Below are positions 29,726 to 39,577 of a stretch of 64,000 bases of DNA, piece after piece (the first letter of the stretch is position 1; every line of letters starts with the position of its first letter). Made by a program: the position numbers and the translations under genes. This DNA comes from a virus (taxonomy: Duplodnaviria > Caudoviricetes), in IMG/VR virus record IMGVR_UViG_2706795344_000001, positions 32,001-96,000 of that record; one strand, written 5' to 3'. The notes under the pieces are model-generated. The model was not told where the DNA came from and did no database searches. It worked only from the letters and a program-made list of their open reading frames with translations.

Positions 29726-30370
29726 ATGAGTCAGTATATAGAATTTGGTGTAGAGCAATTTAACAAATTTTTAAATGAGGAATTGCAACCAGCCGTTTAT
29801 GAATTTAATGGTGCATGTGGTAAAGACCCACACGTTGTAGATGATATCGATGAAGCAGCATTAATGGTTATTAATGAGTGTAAACGTGTTATTGAAGAAT
29901 GTGATGAAACTATTGCAGCATTTAAGGCTAAAGATTTAAAAGAGCGTTTAGATGGTGTGGTTGATGTTTACTGGACGTTTAGTCAGTTAGACAAATTAAT
30001 GGTTGTGTTTAATGAGAAGTTTGGAGACAAGCTTATTCAACACATGAAAGAAAATTACGAATATGATGAAGTATTGTTATTAACTTATGCAGTTAAGCTT
30101 GCACCATTAGCTATTCAGTTGGGTCAAGGTACAATCATTTCAGGTCATCGTATTTCTATTGCAGCTCGACGTATTATCGAGAACAACAAGCAAAAGTATA
30201 CAACAGATTTAGATACTGCATTGGATTGGGAAAAACATCGACCAGAAGGTGTTGTATTACGTAAGTATGAGTATTTAGGTAAAGAGTATTACTGCTTGAA
30301 ACGTGTGTCAGATGACTACATTGTTAAACCTTATACATTCAAGGATGTAAAGTTAGAGGACTTAGTATGA
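29726..30370 (+). CDS. MazG-like (all-alpha) NTP pyrophosphohydrolase
   Basis: EECDET...ERLDGVVD; N..K and K motifs. Confidence 0.65.
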   Translation: MSQYIEFGVEQFNKFLNEELQPAVYEFNGACGKDPHVVDDIDEAALMVINECKRVIEECDETIAAFKAKDLKERLDGVVDVYWTFSQLDKLMVVFNEKFGDKLIQHMKENYEYDEVLLLTYAVKLAPLAIQLGQGTIISGHRISIAARRIIENNKQKYTTDLDTALDWEKHRPEGVVLRKYEYLGKEYYCLKRVSDDYIVKPYTFKDVKLEDLV

Positions 30371-30750
30371 CAAGAAAAGTGGTGCGTGGTCCAGATCGAA
30401 TTCCACCTCCAGAGCGTTCAGTAAGTTTTAGCGACCTTACTCTTGGAGATAAGGATATTCAAGCAGTTCTGGATAAATGTGGTTTGGAATATGTATTAGT
30501 AAATCTATGGGGTTTCGATAAGAAATTCAATGCTGGTACACCAGAGAAGTTTTATGAAGTTAAAGAATGCCAACATGTCAATCGTGAAGGAAAAAGAGTA
30601 ACTGGAAAATTATATATTGGAGTCGAGAGACTTGATGATGAGTGGATTTTGCATGGTGCTCCGTCTGAACGGGCTAAGTTGGTTGCAAAGCGAGATGTGT
30701 CACTTTTACGAGAACTTTCTAGTATGAGTAGATCAGTAAATTCTTGCTAA
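30367..30750 (+). CDS. Hypothetical protein
   Basis: ATGA-coupled ORF. Confidence 0.65.
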   Translation: MTRKVVRGPDRIPPPERSVSFSDLTLGDKDIQAVLDKCGLEYVLVNLWGFDKKFNAGTPEKFYEVKECQHVNREGKRVTGKLYIGVERLDDEWILHGAPSERAKLVAKRDVSLLRELSSMSRSVNSC

Positions 30751-30754
30751 GTGT

Positions 30755-30780
30755 AATCCAGCCTTAGTGCTGGATTTTTT
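30755..30780 (+). terminator. Intrinsic terminator
   Basis: ATCCAGC-cttagt-GCTGGAT followed by a T run. Confidence 0.7.
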
Positions 30781-30799
30781 GTTATATAGGAGTAGTAAA

Positions 30800-33706
30800 T
30801 TGTCAGGAAAATATACATCAATCTTAATGCAAGAATCGAACTCATATGTGGATAGATTCCCTCAGTTCGTGGATGCAATTACATTTCAAAAGGAGGATTT
30901 GTTCTGGACAGAGAAAGAGATCAAAGTTGAAAAAGATGAACAGGACTTAAAACATAATATCCTACATTCGCAAGTTCACGCTTTGATGTTCAACCAACGA
31001 CTCTTTACTAAATATGAAGATGTCATTGGTAATGATTACTGGATTGGTGTTGTACATAAGAAGTATAAGTGTCATGAAATTCGAAGACTGGCTATTTGTT
31101 TTGCTGATGTCGAGAATAACATTCACTTCCCATTCTATCGTCGTGTGAACGAAGTTTTAGGGACCCATAACGATGAATTCTATGATGCATTTGAGACAGA
31201 CCCTATTTTAGTGGAACGTGTTAAATTCATGCAGGAATTGGTGGCATCGAAAGATACACTGGCATCTATGGGTGGATTTGCTTTCATGGAAGGTGCAGTA
31301 TTATTTACAGCATTTGCTATGATCAAGTCTCTCGGTGTTAAAGGTCAGTCATTTATGCCTAATTTGATTTCAGGTATTAACATGTCTATCCTTGACGAGA
31401 ACTTTCACATGCAGACGGCTTGTGAGATTTTCCGTACACAGTTAGAACTTGAGAATCGTACAGAGGAGGATGTTCGTAAGCTTAAAGAGGCCATCTATAA
31501 GCATGCTGAGAATGTCTTGGAACATGAATACATTATCATTAATGCTATGTTAGCTGAAGGTGATATTCCTTTTGCTTCTAAGAAGGAGTTGCAAGCATTT
31601 GCTCGTCACCGTGTTAACGTTGTATTAACAACTTTAGGTTTCCCTGAGTTAGCCACATTTGATGAGACAGATGATACTATCTCTGAGTGGTTCTATGAAT
31701 TCATGGGTGGGTATACAAGTAACGATAACTTCTATTCTCGTGGTCGTAACTACAAGAAAGAGTTCTCTGCTGTTGACTATGACATTATCTCAAATGGTGC
31801 TGTAGAGGAAGTACTTGCACAAATCCCTGATGAGTATTTAGACCAAATGGGTATTGACTTGAATCGTAAGTTCGAAAAGACTTTAGAGGAAGAGTTAGAG
31901 GCCAAACGTCCTAAACGTAAGAAGCACAACAATGCGGAAGATGCTTTATATGTTCCAGATTACAGTCGTGAACGTAAAGAGATGCAAGCACGTGGTGAAG
32001 CTCCTGAGTGGATGGCAACGGCTGGATGGCAGTTATTCAAGAAGAAATATCTTAACGGTGACTGTAAGACTCCAAAAGACCAGTACATGCGTATTGCTAA
32101 GTGTTTAGGGCAGTATGCACCTGAAGTTTACCCTTCTTGGTGGAATACTATTCCATATTGGGCTGGTTTGACATGGGAAGAGGCATTCTTCAAAATCATG
32201 TGGGATGGTTTCTTAAGTCCTTCAACTCCTGTACTTTCAAACACAGGTACAGATTTTGGTATGTCGGTATCATGCTCTGGTGCTGTAACTGAAGATAGTG
32301 TTGCTGGGTTCTATGACGCTCGTAAGATCAATGCATTACTTTCGAAAGAAGGTTTTGGTACTACAATTGATTTAGATCGTATCCGTGGACGTGGCATGCC
32401 AATGAAGGGTGGTATTGCCAATGGTGCTCTTCCTGTAGCTCGTATGTTCCGTCAGGATGCTTTAGATATCAGCCAAGGCTCACAACGTCGTGGTGCTACA
32501 GCTTGGTATTACAGTGTGGAAGGTTTGGACTTTGATGAATTATTACACTTCTTAGAGTATGATACGGATGGCAATAATGGTGGTTGGAAAATTACTAATG
32601 AGCTTCTTAACCGTGTCTTAATTGGTGATACATTAGCTATTGAACGTTTGAATAAAATCTTAGCTGTTCGACACCATGTAGGTTTGGGTTACGAATTATT
32701 TATCGATAAGGTGAATGCTCGTCGTCCTCAGATGTACAAAGATCGTGGTATGATGGTTTCTACAAGTAACCTATGTACTGAGATTACATTGTTTAGTGAC
32801 CCTGAACATACATTTACATGTGTATTGTCAAGTGAGAACTTAGTTCGATTTGATGAGCGTCCAGAGAACTTGGCCTTTGTTGGTACAGTGTTCCTTGACT
32901 GTGTGGCTGAAGACTTTATTCAGAAAGGTTCTAAGATCAAAGGTCTTGAAACTGCTGTTGAGTTTACTAAGAAAGGCCGTGCTCTTGGTTATGGTACAAT
33001 GGGCTTTGCTTCATACTTAATGCGTAACGACATCGAGTATGGTTCAATGGAATCATTCTGGAAGAATAAGAAGATTTATTCTACCCTTGAAGCAGAAACA
33101 AAAGCAGCTTCTAAATGGTTGGCTAAAGTTCTTGGTGAACCAGAGTGGTGTGAAGGTTATGGTGTTCGTAATACACACTTAATGGCTATCGCTCCTACTA
33201 AGTCTACAGGCTTATTAATGGGTGGTGACTCTGAGGGTATTAATGTTCCGTCAGCATTTGTATTTGCACAAGATACTCCAGCTGGAACTGTATTCCGTAT
33301 TGACCCATCATTCTTGATGTTGTTGAAACGTAAAGGTCTATATAAAATTGACCCTGAAACAAAACGATTAACACCTGAAACTGAGGCGTTATTAAAACGT
33401 GTGTCAGACAACCTTGGTAGTGTGCAAACATTAACAGATGTCTTGACAGACAAAGAACGTGCTGTATTTAAAACAGCTTATGAGATTAACCAGTACCGTC
33501 ATATTGATTTGTGTGCTCAACGTCAAGAACATATTGACCAAGCTCAATCAATCAACTTATTCATTGCGAATATGTCGGCTCAGGAAATCGCTAAGTTGTA
33601 TATGTATGCTGCACTTAACCCTAATATCTTGAGTTTGTATTACCATACTGGTATTCGTGACTCTCGTATTGGGGAGAATAAAAACGAATGTGAATCTTGT
33701 CAATAA
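30800..33706 (+). CDS. nrdB-nrdA: Class I ribonucleotide reductase, beta (NrdB) and alpha (NrdA) subunits fused in one ORF
   Basis: N-terminal half: FWTEKE, YE, ENNIHFPFY, EGAVLF, DENFH. C-terminal half: SPSTP, VSC, SNLCTEI, TCVLSS, APT, QAQSINL, LYY and terminal CESC. TTG start at 30800 after AGGAG. Confidence 0.9.
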   Translation: MSGKYTSILMQESNSYVDRFPQFVDAITFQKEDLFWTEKEIKVEKDEQDLKHNILHSQVHALMFNQRLFTKYEDVIGNDYWIGVVHKKYKCHEIRRLAICFADVENNIHFPFYRRVNEVLGTHNDEFYDAFETDPILVERVKFMQELVASKDTLASMGGFAFMEGAVLFTAFAMIKSLGVKGQSFMPNLISGINMSILDENFHMQTACEIFRTQLELENRTEEDVRKLKEAIYKHAENVLEHEYIIINAMLAEGDIPFASKKELQAFARHRVNVVLTTLGFPELATFDETDDTISEWFYEFMGGYTSNDNFYSRGRNYKKEFSAVDYDIISNGAVEEVLAQIPDEYLDQMGIDLNRKFEKTLEEELEAKRPKRKKHNNAEDALYVPDYSRERKEMQARGEAPEWMATAGWQLFKKKYLNGDCKTPKDQYMRIAKCLGQYAPEVYPSWWNTIPYWAGLTWEEAFFKIMWDGFLSPSTPVLSNTGTDFGMSVSCSGAVTEDSVAGFYDARKINALLSKEGFGTTIDLDRIRGRGMPMKGGIANGALPVARMFRQDALDISQGSQRRGATAWYYSVEGLDFDELLHFLEYDTDGNNGGWKITNELLNRVLIGDTLAIERLNKILAVRHHVGLGYELFIDKVNARRPQMYKDRGMMVSTSNLCTEITLFSDPEHTFTCVLSSENLVRFDERPENLAFVGTVFLDCVAEDFIQKGSKIKGLETAVEFTKKGRALGYGTMGFASYLMRNDIEYGSMESFWKNKKIYSTLEAETKAASKWLAKVLGEPEWCEGYGVRNTHLMAIAPTKSTGLLMGGDSEGINVPSAFVFAQDTPAGTVFRIDPSFLMLLKRKGLYKIDPETKRLTPETEALLKRVSDNLGSVQTLTDVLTDKERAVFKTAYEINQYRHIDLCAQRQEHIDQAQSINLFIANMSAQEIAKLYMYAALNPNILSLYYHTGIRDSRIGENKNECESCQ

Positions 33707-33834: not shown

Positions 33835-33895
33835 TTGACAAGCTAAAACTTAACCATTAATATAAGGGCATATCTTTCGGGATGTGCCCTTTTTT
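33835..33895 (+). promoter_or_regulatory. Promoter abutting an intrinsic terminator
   Basis: TTGACA-17-TAATAT, then AAGGGCATATC-tttcgg-GATGTGCCCTT and a T run. Confidence 0.7.
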
Positions 33896-37769: not shown

Positions 37770-38747
37770 ATGAGTGATGAAGTCCAGTATTTAAATCTAT
37801 TAAAGGATTTATGTCGGAAGATTGAAGAGAAAGGGTTTACAACCAATGATCGAACTGGTGTTGGCACGTGTAAAATATTTGGTGCTCAGATGAGGTTTGA
37901 TTTGGAAAAAGGATTCCCTTTATTTACACATAAAAAAGTATTCATGCGTGGTATTTTTGAAGAGTTGATGTGGTTCTTACGTGGCGAAACTAATATTAGA
38001 AGTTTGCTTGAAAAAGGTGTGCATATCTGGACTGAATGGCGATACAAAGCATACTTGAAAGATTTCGAAGATAAGAATGCTGGACGTGGTTTAACTCCAT
38101 ACACCATGGAAGAGTTTGAGGCAATGGTCGTAAACCATACGCCTACTGCTATTAAGTGGGGTGATATTGGTAAGGGTTATGGACATCAATGGCGTAACTT
38201 TGGTGCGATTGAAGATGAAGCAGTTGATGTTGGTGCATTTGGGCAGAGAAGTGTATTATACTCACGTGAGGGTATTGATCAGATCGAGTGGGTAATTAAT
38301 GAGATTAAAACTAATCCAAATAGCCGTCGTATGATTGTCACGGGGTGGAACCCTCATGAGATTGAAGATGTAGACCTTCCACCATGTCATACACTATTCC
38401 AATTCTTTGTGGAAGATGGTAAGCTTTCTTGCCAGCTATATCAACGTAGTGCTGACATTTTACTTGGTGTGCCATTCAATATTGCATCATATGCCTTACT
38501 TACACATCTTATTGCTGCTGAGTGTGGGTTAGGTGTTGGTGAGTTTGTTTGGACTGGTGGTGATATCCATGTGTACTCGAATCAATATGAAGGGTTGAAA
38601 GAGATTGTGAACAATCGCTTTGCTTTGAAAGCACCTACATTAAAGTTACGGAGAGTACGTGAAGATATTTCACAATATCAATGGCAAGATATTATTATAG
38701 AAGGGTATAATTCATTACCTAAAGTGGAAATGCCTGTGGCTGTATAA
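37770..38747 (+). CDS. thyA: Thymidylate synthase
   Basis: DRTGVGT, ELMWFLRG, YGHQWR, LPPCH, YQRSAD, GVPFNIASY and DIHVY. Confidence 0.97.
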   Translation: MSDEVQYLNLLKDLCRKIEEKGFTTNDRTGVGTCKIFGAQMRFDLEKGFPLFTHKKVFMRGIFEELMWFLRGETNIRSLLEKGVHIWTEWRYKAYLKDFEDKNAGRGLTPYTMEEFEAMVVNHTPTAIKWGDIGKGYGHQWRNFGAIEDEAVDVGAFGQRSVLYSREGIDQIEWVINEIKTNPNSRRMIVTGWNPHEIEDVDLPPCHTLFQFFVEDGKLSCQLYQRSADILLGVPFNIASYALLTHLIAAECGLGVGEFVWTGGDIHVYSNQYEGLKEIVNNRFALKAPTLKLRRVREDISQYQWQDIIIEGYNSLPKVEMPVAV

Positions 38748-39010: not shown

Positions 39011-39577
39011 ATGTATAATGGACGTAATAAAGTTAAAATTTGCCATATTGTGGCTGCTGGTTTAAATGGTGAGATTGGGAAAGATAATAAATTACTTTGC
39101 CATATTCCAGAGGATTTAGCTTACTTTAAGAAGATGACGTTAGGTCATGCTGTAGTAATGGGTCGCAAGACTTTAGAATCACTACCAAACAAACTATCTC
39201 GTCGTGCTGTATGGGAAGTCACCAATCGAAAACATGATGGAAGTCGATGGTATAATGGTTTACACTCAGCTTTATATGCTGCATCTGGTTCATGCTATTT
39301 CTTGAACACGAATAAAATTTGGATTGCTGGTGGTGCATCTATCTATGAGCAGACAAATGATATTGTTGATGAGGTTTACCTTACACGTATTCATCATGAA
39401 TTCCCTGACGCTGACAGCTTCTATAAGATTCCTGAAGGATTTGTGTTTGAGGGATATACAGAGCGTACATTGGAGCATTTCCCTGAAGAACGATTTCTTG
39501 AGGATAAATTAAGTTTAGATACATGGAAAGTTACATTTGAGAAGTGGGTTCGTGTTGACAGTTGGAAAAATAAGTAG
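39011..39577 (+). CDS. folA: Dihydrofolate reductase
   Basis: IGKDNKL..HIPEDL.YFK..T, VMGRKT..SLP, IAGGASIY and YLTRI. Confidence 0.95.
   Translation: MYNGRNKVKICHIVAAGLNGEIGKDNKLLCHIPEDLAYFKKMTLGHAVVMGRKTLESLPNKLSRRAVWEVTNRKHDGSRWYNGLHSALYAASGSCYFLNTNKIWIAGGASIYEQTNDIVDEVYLTRIHHEFPDADSFYKIPEGFVFEGYTERTLEHFPEERFLEDKLSLDTWKVTFEKWVRVDSWKNK

What the first reader, a model, noticed from the sequence alone, without database searches (positions are those of the whole stretch)
30800..33706. Single-chain class I ribonucleotide reductase: beta subunit fused N-terminally to alpha
Seen: one uninterrupted ORF of about 968 aa. It has a ferritin-like radical subunit (metal ligands in YE, ENNIH, EG and DENFH; radical Tyr in HFPFY; C-tail NY), a charged linker of about 65 aa (about 31766-31960), and a compact alpha subunit with no ATP-cone (VSC, NLCTE, TCV, YY, terminal CESC). 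Established: class I RNRs are normally separate alpha2/beta2 proteins, and the free beta C-tail docks on alpha. Inference: covalent tethering enforces cognate pairing and avoids mixing with host subunits. The first metal ligand is Glu and the ExxH motif has a one-residue insertion, so the cofactor is also worth testing.
Basis: partly seen in the sequence, partly recalled or inferred. Interest (0 to 1): 0.7.

Follow-up and report, generated by a model that had tools for sequence, protein, structure and literature searches.

The report
Single-chain phage ribonucleotide reductase (beta-alpha fusion)
This Acinetobacter phage makes both subunits of its aerobic ribonucleotide reductase, the enzyme that supplies DNA building blocks, as one conserved 968-residue protein; I found no paper describing this natural arrangement, and it could serve as a ready-made tethered form of a normally short-lived enzyme complex.

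Summary
Window 30800-33706 (+) is one uninterrupted 968-aa ORF with a TTG start and an AGGAG ribosome-binding site. It carries a complete NrdB-like radical subunit joined to a compact NrdA-like catalytic subunit with no ATP-cone. It is the only RNR gene in the 104.9-kb phage genome.

The fusion is not an assembly error:
- It occurs in 16 Saclayvirus-type Acinetobacter phage records, in Acibel004, and in seven 90%-identity protein clusters (six known only from metagenome assemblies) down to 74% identity.
- Contigs from four independent studies cross the junction without indels.
- dN/dS is 0.02-0.05.

The fused forms are one clade. Its sister clade has tightly packed split nrdB-nrdA genes. At least one independent fusion exists in the bacterial class Id clade.

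The closest known enzymes are class Id RNRs. The alpha fold matches theirs (TM 0.93-0.95), and the ligand set is E/E/H/E/E/H. The ExxxH spacing is real, but it is a hallmark of the whole phage clade, not of the fusion.

AlphaFold suggests that only about 17 residues form a free linker. Residues 320-369 look docked on alpha.

I found no paper describing a natural NrdB-NrdA fusion. This scan has already confirmed the same fusion on other phage genomes. The claimed benefit of avoiding host subunits is untested.

The parts
30755..30776 (+). Terminator-like hairpin with T-run just upstream of the gene. It contains the GTG at 30767 that the ORF listing used as start.
   Evidence: 8-bp stem, 4 GC pairs, TTTTGTTATA tail
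30788..30792 (+). Ribosome-binding site AGGAG, 7 nt before the TTG start
   Evidence: sequence read directly
30800..33706 (+). Whole fused nrdB-nrdA gene (968 codons plus stop)
   Evidence: PHROG 30939 matched end to end, 2208 bits
30800..31708 (+). Beta (NrdB-like, ferritin-like) core, residues 1-303. Ligands are E73, E105, H109, E164, E200, H203; Tyr113 sits at the radical position.
31709..31756 (+). Flexible proximal beta tail, residues 304-319. It holds Y318, which aligns with the radical-transfer Tyr of the tail (E. coli Y356 position, by motif).
   Evidence: pLDDT below 50; alignment with class Id tails
31757..31906 (+). Ordered tail module, residues 320-369. It comprises the canonical alpha-binding peptide (about 320-330), a helix shared with split relatives (335-341), and fusion-specific helices (344-349, 362-367).
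   Evidence: pLDDT 81-95 with the beta core present and 82-94 without it; conservation
31907..31957 (+). True flexible linker, residues 370-386. It is basic and variable in sequence and length.
   Evidence: pLDDT below 50. 21 of 27 residues of 356-382 differ from Acibel004, and fused relatives carry 8-10-residue indels here.
31958..33658 (+). Alpha (NrdA-like) catalytic domain, residues 387-953. Key residues are C492, N657/C659/E661, C674 and Y947/Y948. There is no ATP-cone.
   Evidence: TM 0.93-0.95 to class Id alpha structures 6DQX/6DQW
33659..33703 (+). Flexible alpha C-terminal tail with the C964-x-x-C967 redox shuttle pair
   Evidence: low pLDDT 954-968
33835..33891 (+). Downstream promoter-like site followed directly by a strong terminator-like hairpin; marks the end of the transcription unit

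Best explanation
The gene encodes a working single-chain class I ribonucleotide reductase.

Origin (inferred). In the ancestor of Saclayvirus-type Acinetobacter phages, the adjacent and often overlapping nrdB and nrdA genes were joined in frame. The gene order beta then alpha is universal in this phage clade.

Chemistry (inferred from conserved residues). The enzyme should work like any class I RNR:
- The beta domain's dimetal site (E73, E105, H109, E164, E200, H203) builds the oxidant. This is either a Tyr113 radical or, as in class Id, a high-valent Mn2 centre.
- The radical passes through Y318 in the flexible tail to Y948/Y947 and then to C659 in alpha.
- C492 and C674, with N657 and E661, reduce the nucleoside diphosphate.
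- C964/C967 re-reduce the active site, drawing on a phage or host redoxin.
- With no ATP-cone, there is no dATP off-switch.

Architecture (from AlphaFold confidence only). The beta core is followed by a 16-residue flexible stretch holding Y318. Next comes a 50-residue tail module docked on alpha, then a flexible linker of about 17 residues, then alpha.

Benefit (inferred, not shown). The tether fixes the stoichiometry at 1:1 and keeps the normally weak, transient alpha-beta contact at high local concentration. The likely assembly is a (beta-alpha)2 dimer that preserves both homodimer interfaces.
For: - One ORF holds both Pfam families, and every catalytic, radical-path and ligand residue is present.
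- It is the only alpha locus and the only beta locus in the complete 104,906-bp phage record.
- The fused form occurs in 16 phage records at 95-97% aa identity while the DNA is only about 80% identical. It also occurs in Acibel004 at 77% and in protein clusters P0002-P0008 at 74-96%.
- dN/dS is 0.018 for the beta core and 0.048 for alpha at dS 0.7-0.9.
- Contigs of four studies cross 31500-32200 with no indels. All substitutions listed between 31642 and 31960 fall on third codon positions.
- In the alpha-domain tree the fused forms are one clade (SH-aLRT 100), sister to a split clade.
- Split relatives have beta then alpha, a median of 26 nt from the beta stop to the first aligned alpha residue. 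In Phab24 the two genes overlap by 8 nt.
- Residues 320-369 stay at high pLDDT when the beta core is removed from the fold. This points to docking on alpha.
- The alpha fold matches class Id alpha structures.
Against: - There is no biochemical or proteomic evidence that the full-length chain is the active species.
- The linker holds a basic run (KRPKRKK) that could be a cleavage site.
- AlphaFold folded a monomer, so it can only show cis docking.
- Whole-chain pTM is only 0.70, so the relative placement of beta and alpha is uncertain.
- The selective advantage is conjecture. Among the 80 related viral loci kept, 77 stay split, and split relatives infect the same host genus.
Confidence: 0.85

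Rival explanations
1. Polyprotein. The fused chain is only a translation product and is cut in the flexible basic linker, by a host or phage protease, to give ordinary separate beta and alpha subunits.
For: Residues 370-386 are low-confidence, basic, and variable in sequence and length. Split relatives work as two proteins.
Against: No protease motif or protease gene was identified. The linker sequence is not conserved (21 of 27 residues differ from Acibel004), which argues against a specific cleavage site. The fusion-specific segment 344-369 is conserved among most fused forms and is confidently folded. That would be pointless if the join were merely severed.
Confidence: 0.08
2. Dual products. 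An internal start near the alpha boundary also yields free alpha, so the cell holds both fused and free subunits.
For: An in-frame ATG (M393) lies just inside alpha, with AAAGAG directly before it.
Against: M393 is Leu in most fused relatives. The purine run abuts the ATG with no spacer. The other nearby Met (in EWMATAG) is a structural residue also conserved in split alphas. No promoter-like site lies before the alpha part; the only internal one, at 32168-32196, is weak and lies downstream of the boundary.
Confidence: 0.04
3. Artefact. A sequencing or assembly error removed a stop codon and restart at the junction.
For: None found. Related phages such as Phab24 have an 8-nt overlap, where a single-base error could mimic a fusion.
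Against: The same frame is open in 16 isolate genomes, in Acibel004, in seven protein clusters, and in contigs of four studies (one at depth 134) with zero gaps. The fused forms carry about 40 extra in-frame residues that the split forms lack. dN/dS through the junction is low.
Confidence: 0.01

Closest known systems
Split nrdB-nrdA pairs of related phages (Acinetobacter phages Phab24, Ab3/Ab5/Ab7, MD-2021a; Edwardsiella phage ET-ABTNL-9)
   Same: They share 59-69% identity with this gene in both domains. They have the same ligand set, including ExxxH and HFPFY, the same tail motif, the same compact alpha, and the same beta-then-alpha order. They form the sister clade in the alpha tree.
   Different: They are two genes. 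In Phab24 beta ends about 20 residues after the alpha-binding motif, and alpha starts at an overlapping GTG in another frame. The fused form has about 40 extra residues joining them.
Class Id RNR (NrdAi/NrdBi) of Flavobacterium johnsoniae, Actinobacillus ureae and Leeuwenhoekiella blandensis (PDB 6DQW, 6DQX, 6CWO-6CWQ, 6SF4, 5OLK)
   Same: Alpha is short, has no ATP-cone, and gives the best sequence and fold matches (E 7e-81; TM 0.93-0.95). The ligand identities are E-E-H-E-E-H, as tabulated for NrdBi in PMC6370689. Tyr is kept at the radical position. The beta-then-alpha operon order is typical of this clade (PMC9669993).
   Different: The subunits are separate. Spacing is ExxH, not ExxxH. 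Beta identity is only about 20%. NCBIfam NrdE-prime scores 427 bits, below its 602 cut-off. The best solved beta match is 9DWS, not a class Id beta. The cofactor here is unknown.
Engineered E. coli class Ia alpha-beta-tail chimeras (PDB 8VHU; PhotoRNR, PMC11067019)
   Same: Part of beta is covalently joined to alpha so that the tail stays at its docking site. That work notes that flexibility at the join is needed (PMC11067019).
   Different: These are man-made. Only the last 35 residues of beta are attached, and to the C-terminus of alpha. They have no metal-cofactor domain. The phage protein is natural, carries the whole beta, and has the order beta then alpha.
Other natural RNR fusions: NrdD-NrdG in eukaryotes (PMC3019208); Grx-ATP-cone-NrdB of Facklamia ignava (PMC6187632); ATP-cone-NrdB (PMC5794259)
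   Same: They are precedents for RNR components or accessory domains being fused into one chain.
   Different: None of them joins the class I radical subunit to the catalytic subunit.
Bacterial NrdB-NrdA fusions found here: P0204 (ATP-cone-NrdB-NrdA, 1019 aa) and L067:506-3262 (Kapaibacterium MAG, 918 aa)
   Same: They have the same beta-then-alpha single-ORF architecture with a linker of 40-50 residues.
   Different: They are only 27-30% identical to the phage protein. They lie inside the Bacteroidota-type class Id clade and have canonical ExxH. P0204 adds an N-terminal ATP-cone. Each is known from only one or two assemblies.

Membership tests
Class I RNR catalytic subunit (NrdA; Pfam PF02867 + PF00317) | Barrel domain and all-alpha domain detected above curated cut-offs | tested here: met
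   PF02867 scores 219 bits (cut-off 23.9) and PF00317 scores 37.1 bits (cut-off 28).
Class I RNR catalytic subunit (NrdA; Pfam PF02867 + PF00317) | Thiyl-radical Cys in N-x-C-x-E, redox Cys pair, Tyr-Tyr dyad, C-terminal Cys pair | tested here: met
   N657/C659/E661, C492 and C674, Y947/Y948, and C964/C967 are present. They are invariant or nearly so in alignment A3.
Class I RNR radical subunit (NrdB; Pfam PF00268) | Ferritin-like domain with six carboxylate/His metal ligands, Tyr at the radical site, and Tyr in the C-terminal tail | tested here: met
   PF00268 scores 108.8 bits (cut-off 33.6). E73, E105, H109, E164, E200, H203, Y113 and Y318 are conserved across the clade.
Class I RNR radical subunit (NrdB; Pfam PF00268) | Canonical E-x-x-H spacing in both ligand helices | tested here: not met
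   The first pair is E105-N-N-I-H109 (ExxxH). No acidic residue lies at H-3. The second pair, E200-x-x-H203, is canonical. ExxxH occurs in 79 of 80 clade members.
Class Id RNR (NrdAi/NrdBi) | Short alpha with no ATP-cone whose closest structures are class Id alphas | tested here: met
   There is no PF03477 hit. 6DQX and 6DQW are the top matches by sequence and by fold.
Class Id RNR (NrdAi/NrdBi) | First-sphere ligand identities E-E-H-E-E-H | tested here: met
   E73 is invariant and aligns with the class Id Glu. The ligand table is in PMC6370689. The spacing differs, as noted above.
Class Id RNR (NrdAi/NrdBi) | Curated equivalog model for the short alpha (NCBIfam TIGR02510 NrdE-prime) passed | tested here: not met
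   It scores 427 bits against a cut-off of 602.
Class Id RNR (NrdAi/NrdBi) | Mn2(IV,III) cofactor used directly as radical initiator, with no stable tyrosyl radical | not testable with these tools
   This needs metal analysis and EPR on purified protein.
Natural single-chain (beta-alpha) class I RNR, as proposed here | Both subunits in one ORF, reproduced in independent assemblies and kept under purifying selection | tested here: met
Natural single-chain (beta-alpha) class I RNR, as proposed here | The full-length chain is the active enzyme and is not cleaved | not testable with these tools
   No proteomic data were held, and no RNA run was listed.

The most novel reading that the evidence does not exclude
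The Saclayvirus enzyme is a constitutively assembled (beta-alpha)2 holoenzyme, which would make it the first natural class I RNR whose radical-transfer complex is permanently tethered. In addition, the phage clade's ExxxH/HxPFY metal site would define a new cofactor subclass distinct from Ia-Ie.
Probability: 0.15. Interest if true: 0.8.

Novelty: new variant of a known kind. Interest (0 to 1): 0.6.

Why it matters
Class I RNRs depend on a weak, transient alpha2-beta2 contact across which a radical travels more than 30 Å.

A natural protein under strong purifying selection that holds the two subunits together would be useful in three ways:
- It is a ready-made system for cryo-EM and for spectroscopy of radical transfer.
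- It is a minimal RNR (no ATP-cone, one gene) for synthetic biology.
- It shows how subunit stoichiometry can be fixed by gene fusion.

The finding also corrects database labels. These genes are filed as 'large subunit', 'class Ia alpha', 'deoxynucleoside kinase' or 'hypothetical'.

Separately, the ExxxH spacing shared by a large phage clade of beta subunits raises a question about which metal and oxidant they use. That question can be tested.

Tried and rejected
Docking of the tail on alpha was therefore tested only indirectly, by folding residues 300-968 without the beta core.
No contacts, distances or metal-site geometry could be measured.
The smaller alignment A4 worked.
- No RNA holder was listed among the sequencing runs, so nothing can be said about transcripts.
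- Literature searches found no natural NrdB-NrdA fusion. I tried fusion/NrdA/NrdB/phage terms, Saclayvirus, Acibel004, class Id plus fused, NrdBi/NrdAi, 'NrdB-NrdA', 'nrdAB fusion' and 9DWS. They turned up only engineered chimeras, NrdDG, Grx-NrdB and ATP-cone-NrdB. Subscription journals are not covered.
I could not reproduce it. Among the 80 best IMG/VR loci only the two Saclayvirus records are fused. The independent fusions I found are bacterial.
- An internal start was considered and rejected (M393 is not conserved).
- The many 700-1500-aa alpha homologues could have been fusions. None carries a beta domain, and the two checked with Pfam (P0175, P0148) carry inteins.
Full report
**What is there**

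The window belongs to a complete 104,906-bp virus record. Its nearest named relatives are Acinetobacter myophages of the genus Saclayvirus, such as vB_AbaM_B09_Aci01-1, TAC1, P1 and Acibel004.

One open frame runs from 30767 to 33706 on the + strand. The GTG at 30767 lies inside a terminator-like hairpin at 30755-30776. An AGGAG at 30788-30792 precedes TTG 30800 by 7 nt, and the annotated homologues begin at the equivalent codon.

Pfam finds Ribonuc_red_sm (29-284), Ribonuc_red_lgN (408-486) and Ribonuc_red_lgC (to 937), and no ATP-cone. PHROG 30939, a 977-position profile, matches from end to end at 2208 bits, so a family of such full-length proteins already sits in phage databases. Searches of the phage's own genome find exactly one alpha locus and one beta locus, both in this gene. 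A weak glutaredoxin-like ORF lies outside the window. The gene sits in a nucleotide-metabolism and replication block with thymidylate synthase, DHFR, DNA ligase and a UvrD-type helicase.

**Is the fusion real?**

Yes.
- tblastn finds the uninterrupted protein in 16 phage records at 95-97% aa identity, although their DNA is only about 80% identical to the window. It also finds it in Acibel004 at 77%.
- The large protein collection adds seven clusters of 959-976 aa at 74-96% identity. All carry both domains.
- Contigs from four different studies were laid on 31500-32200. They cross the junction with no inserted or deleted letters. One is a 103,866-nt contig at depth 134 that spans the whole stretch. 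Every substitution listed between 31642 and 31960 falls on a third codon position.
- Nei-Gojobori estimates against Aci01-1 give dN/dS of 0.018 for the beta core and 0.048 for alpha at dS 0.7-0.9. Against Acibel004, the linker (356-382) has dN 0.86 versus 0.16-0.18 for the two domains. The linker drifts freely while its reading frame is kept.

**Where it came from**

The next relatives, at 59-69% identity, encode beta and alpha as two genes. These are Acinetobacter phages Phab24, Ab3/Ab5/Ab7 and MD-2021a, Edwardsiella phage ET-ABTNL-9, and many metagenomic contigs.

In Phab24 the alpha GTG overlaps the last codons of beta by 8 nt, in another frame. Among the 80 best IMG/VR loci, 77 have beta directly followed by alpha. 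The median distance from the beta stop to the first aligned alpha residue is 26 nt, and 10 of the 77 are in the same frame. Only the two Saclayvirus records are fused.

A quick maximum-likelihood tree of alpha domains puts the eight phage fusions in one clade (SH-aLRT 100). That clade is sister to the split clade (95), and the two together have support of 100. This indicates a single fusion event in the Saclayvirus stem.

The beta tail lengthens stepwise. Betas at 50% identity end right after the D-D/E-F-S-W/Y motif. Betas at 63-69% identity carry 17-35 more residues, including a helix equivalent to 335-341. The fused forms then continue into alpha.

**Independent fusions**

A scan of every representative protein found P0204 (1019 aa), which reads ATP-cone, then NrdB, then NrdA. 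A scan of species genomes with P0204 returned 80 nrdB-nrdA loci, mostly from Bacteroidota. Only one of them is a single ORF: a 918-aa gene in a Kapaibacterium MAG, L067:506-3262. Both sit inside the bacterial class Id clade, far from the phage clade. The architecture therefore arose at least twice. Each bacterial case rests on only one or two assemblies.

**What kind of RNR it is**

The alpha part's best solved relatives, by sequence and by fold, are the class Id alphas of Actinobacillus ureae and Flavobacterium johnsoniae (E 7e-81 and 6e-70; TM 0.93-0.95, rmsd 2.4-2.8 Å). NCBIfam's short-alpha model NrdE-prime matches along its whole length but scores below its cut-off (427 vs 602 bits).

The beta part's best solved match is 9DWS (E 2e-18), whose origin I could not trace. 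The class Id betas follow at E 1e-13 to 1e-10.

The ligand identities are E/E/H/E/E/H. That matches class Ic, class Id and the cyanophage 'If' group in the table of PMC6370689. E73 is invariant, while the residue after it varies (D/N/S/V/R/L). This settles which of the adjacent residues E73 and D74 is the first metal ligand.

The first Glu-His pair is spaced ExxxH (E105-N-N-I-H109), and no acidic residue lies at H-3. This holds in 79 of 80 betas of the wider phage clade, together with an H-x-P-F-Y signature. The Bacteroidota-type class Id betas and 9DWS have ExxH. The unusual spacing is therefore real but belongs to the clade, not to the fusion. I file the enzyme as class Id-like with its subclass unassigned. 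The metal cannot be read from sequence.

**Anatomy of the join**

AlphaFold2 on the full chain with a 90-row alignment gives mean pLDDT 89 and pTM 0.70. The low-confidence stretches are 304-319, 370-386 and the alpha C-terminal tail (954-968). Residues 320-369 score 81-95 and form four short helices.

Refolding residues 300-968 without the beta core keeps the same segment at 82-94, with pTM 0.89. I infer that this 50-residue module packs on alpha. It contains three parts:
- the canonical alpha-binding peptide, which aligns with the C-terminal ...D-L-F of class Id betas;
- a helix shared with the split relatives;
- a fusion-specific part that is conserved among most fused forms.

Y318 aligns with the tail Tyr of class Id betas, and by motif with E. 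coli Y356. It sits in the flexible stretch before the module, as expected for a residue that must reach the alpha-beta interface. The truly free tether is therefore about 17 residues, not 65.

The monomer fold cannot say whether the tail docks on its own alpha or on the partner's.

**How it most likely works**

- Shown: the gene is intact, is the phage's only RNR, is conserved, and has every residue needed for class I chemistry.
- Inferred: it acts as a single chain, probably as a (beta-alpha)2 dimer. The tether gives 1:1 stoichiometry and a high local concentration of the two partners.

Split-gene relatives infect Acinetobacter too. From general knowledge, the beta tail peptide already confers partner specificity.

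The rivals are cleavage in the linker, an internal start, and artefact. I rate them at about 0.08, 0.04 and 0.01.

**Novelty**

I found no paper that describes a natural NrdB-NrdA fusion. The nearest items are:
- engineered alpha-beta-tail chimeras (PMC11067019; PDB 8VHU);
- NrdD-NrdG fusions (PMC3019208);
- Grx- or ATP-cone-NrdB fusions (PMC6187632, PMC5794259).

PMC9669993 notes that the beta-then-alpha operon order is typical of the class Id clade, which explains the direction of the fusion. Public records label the gene as a large subunit, 'class Ia alpha', a kinase, or hypothetical.

Earlier follow-ups of this scan reached the same main conclusion on at least six other phage genomes, so the finding is not new to the scan.
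- the clade-wide ExxxH result;
- the settled first ligand;
- the stepwise lengthening of the tail;
- the structured tail module with a short true linker;
- the junction check across four studies;
- the two bacterial fusions, one of which carries an ATP-cone.

Noticed in passing
window 31109-31138 (residues 104-113); IMG/VR loci L090-L169: A large phage clade of NrdB proteins has E-x-x-x-H followed by x-P-F-Y in place of the canonical ExxH ligand helix. It appears in 79 of 80 loci (alpha identity 44-94% to this gene), 77 of them with split genes. Its first ligand is Glu. The cofactor of this clade may be worth testing in its own right.
   Followed up: partly
P0204 (protein; Logan contigs, longest 85 kb): A 1019-aa protein reads ATP-cone, then NrdB, then NrdA in one chain. 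It is a triple fusion inside the bacterial class Id clade.
   Followed up: partly
L067:506-3262 (Candidatus Kapaibacterium MAG SKYG14): A 918-aa single ORF carries NrdB and NrdA domains. It was the only fused case among 80 species-representative nrdB-nrdA loci, mostly from Bacteroidota. It comes from a single MAG contig, so an assembly error is not excluded.
   Followed up: partly
P0150 (829 aa, ENA contig of 4,086 nt): The first 231 residues are 78% identical to residues 10-237 of this beta domain. About 600 further residues have no Pfam hit. This may be an intein or homing-endonuclease insertion, or another fusion.
   Followed up: no
window 30367-30750: The 127-aa ORF just upstream is named 'thymidylate synthase' in RefSeq relatives but has no Pfam match. 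A genuine ThyA (PF00303, E 2e-101) lies at 37770-38747, with DHFR at 39011-39577.
   Followed up: partly
window 30755-30776 and 33835-33891: A terminator-like hairpin sits directly before the RNR ribosome-binding site. After the gene, a TTGACA-17-TAATAT promoter-like site abuts a 12-bp-stem terminator.
   Followed up: no
G000:C1:11659-11796 (outside the window): A weak glutaredoxin/NrdH-like match (20.1 bits, below the Pfam cut-off) lies in an 84-aa frame. It is a candidate reductant for the RNR.
   Followed up: no
P0175, P0148 checked; many other long alpha homologues listed: Many alpha homologues of this clade are 700-1500 aa long with two to four separate matched stretches and no beta domain. 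The two scanned with Pfam (P0175, P0148) carry intein and LAGLIDADG domains, so length alone does not indicate a fusion.
   Followed up: partly
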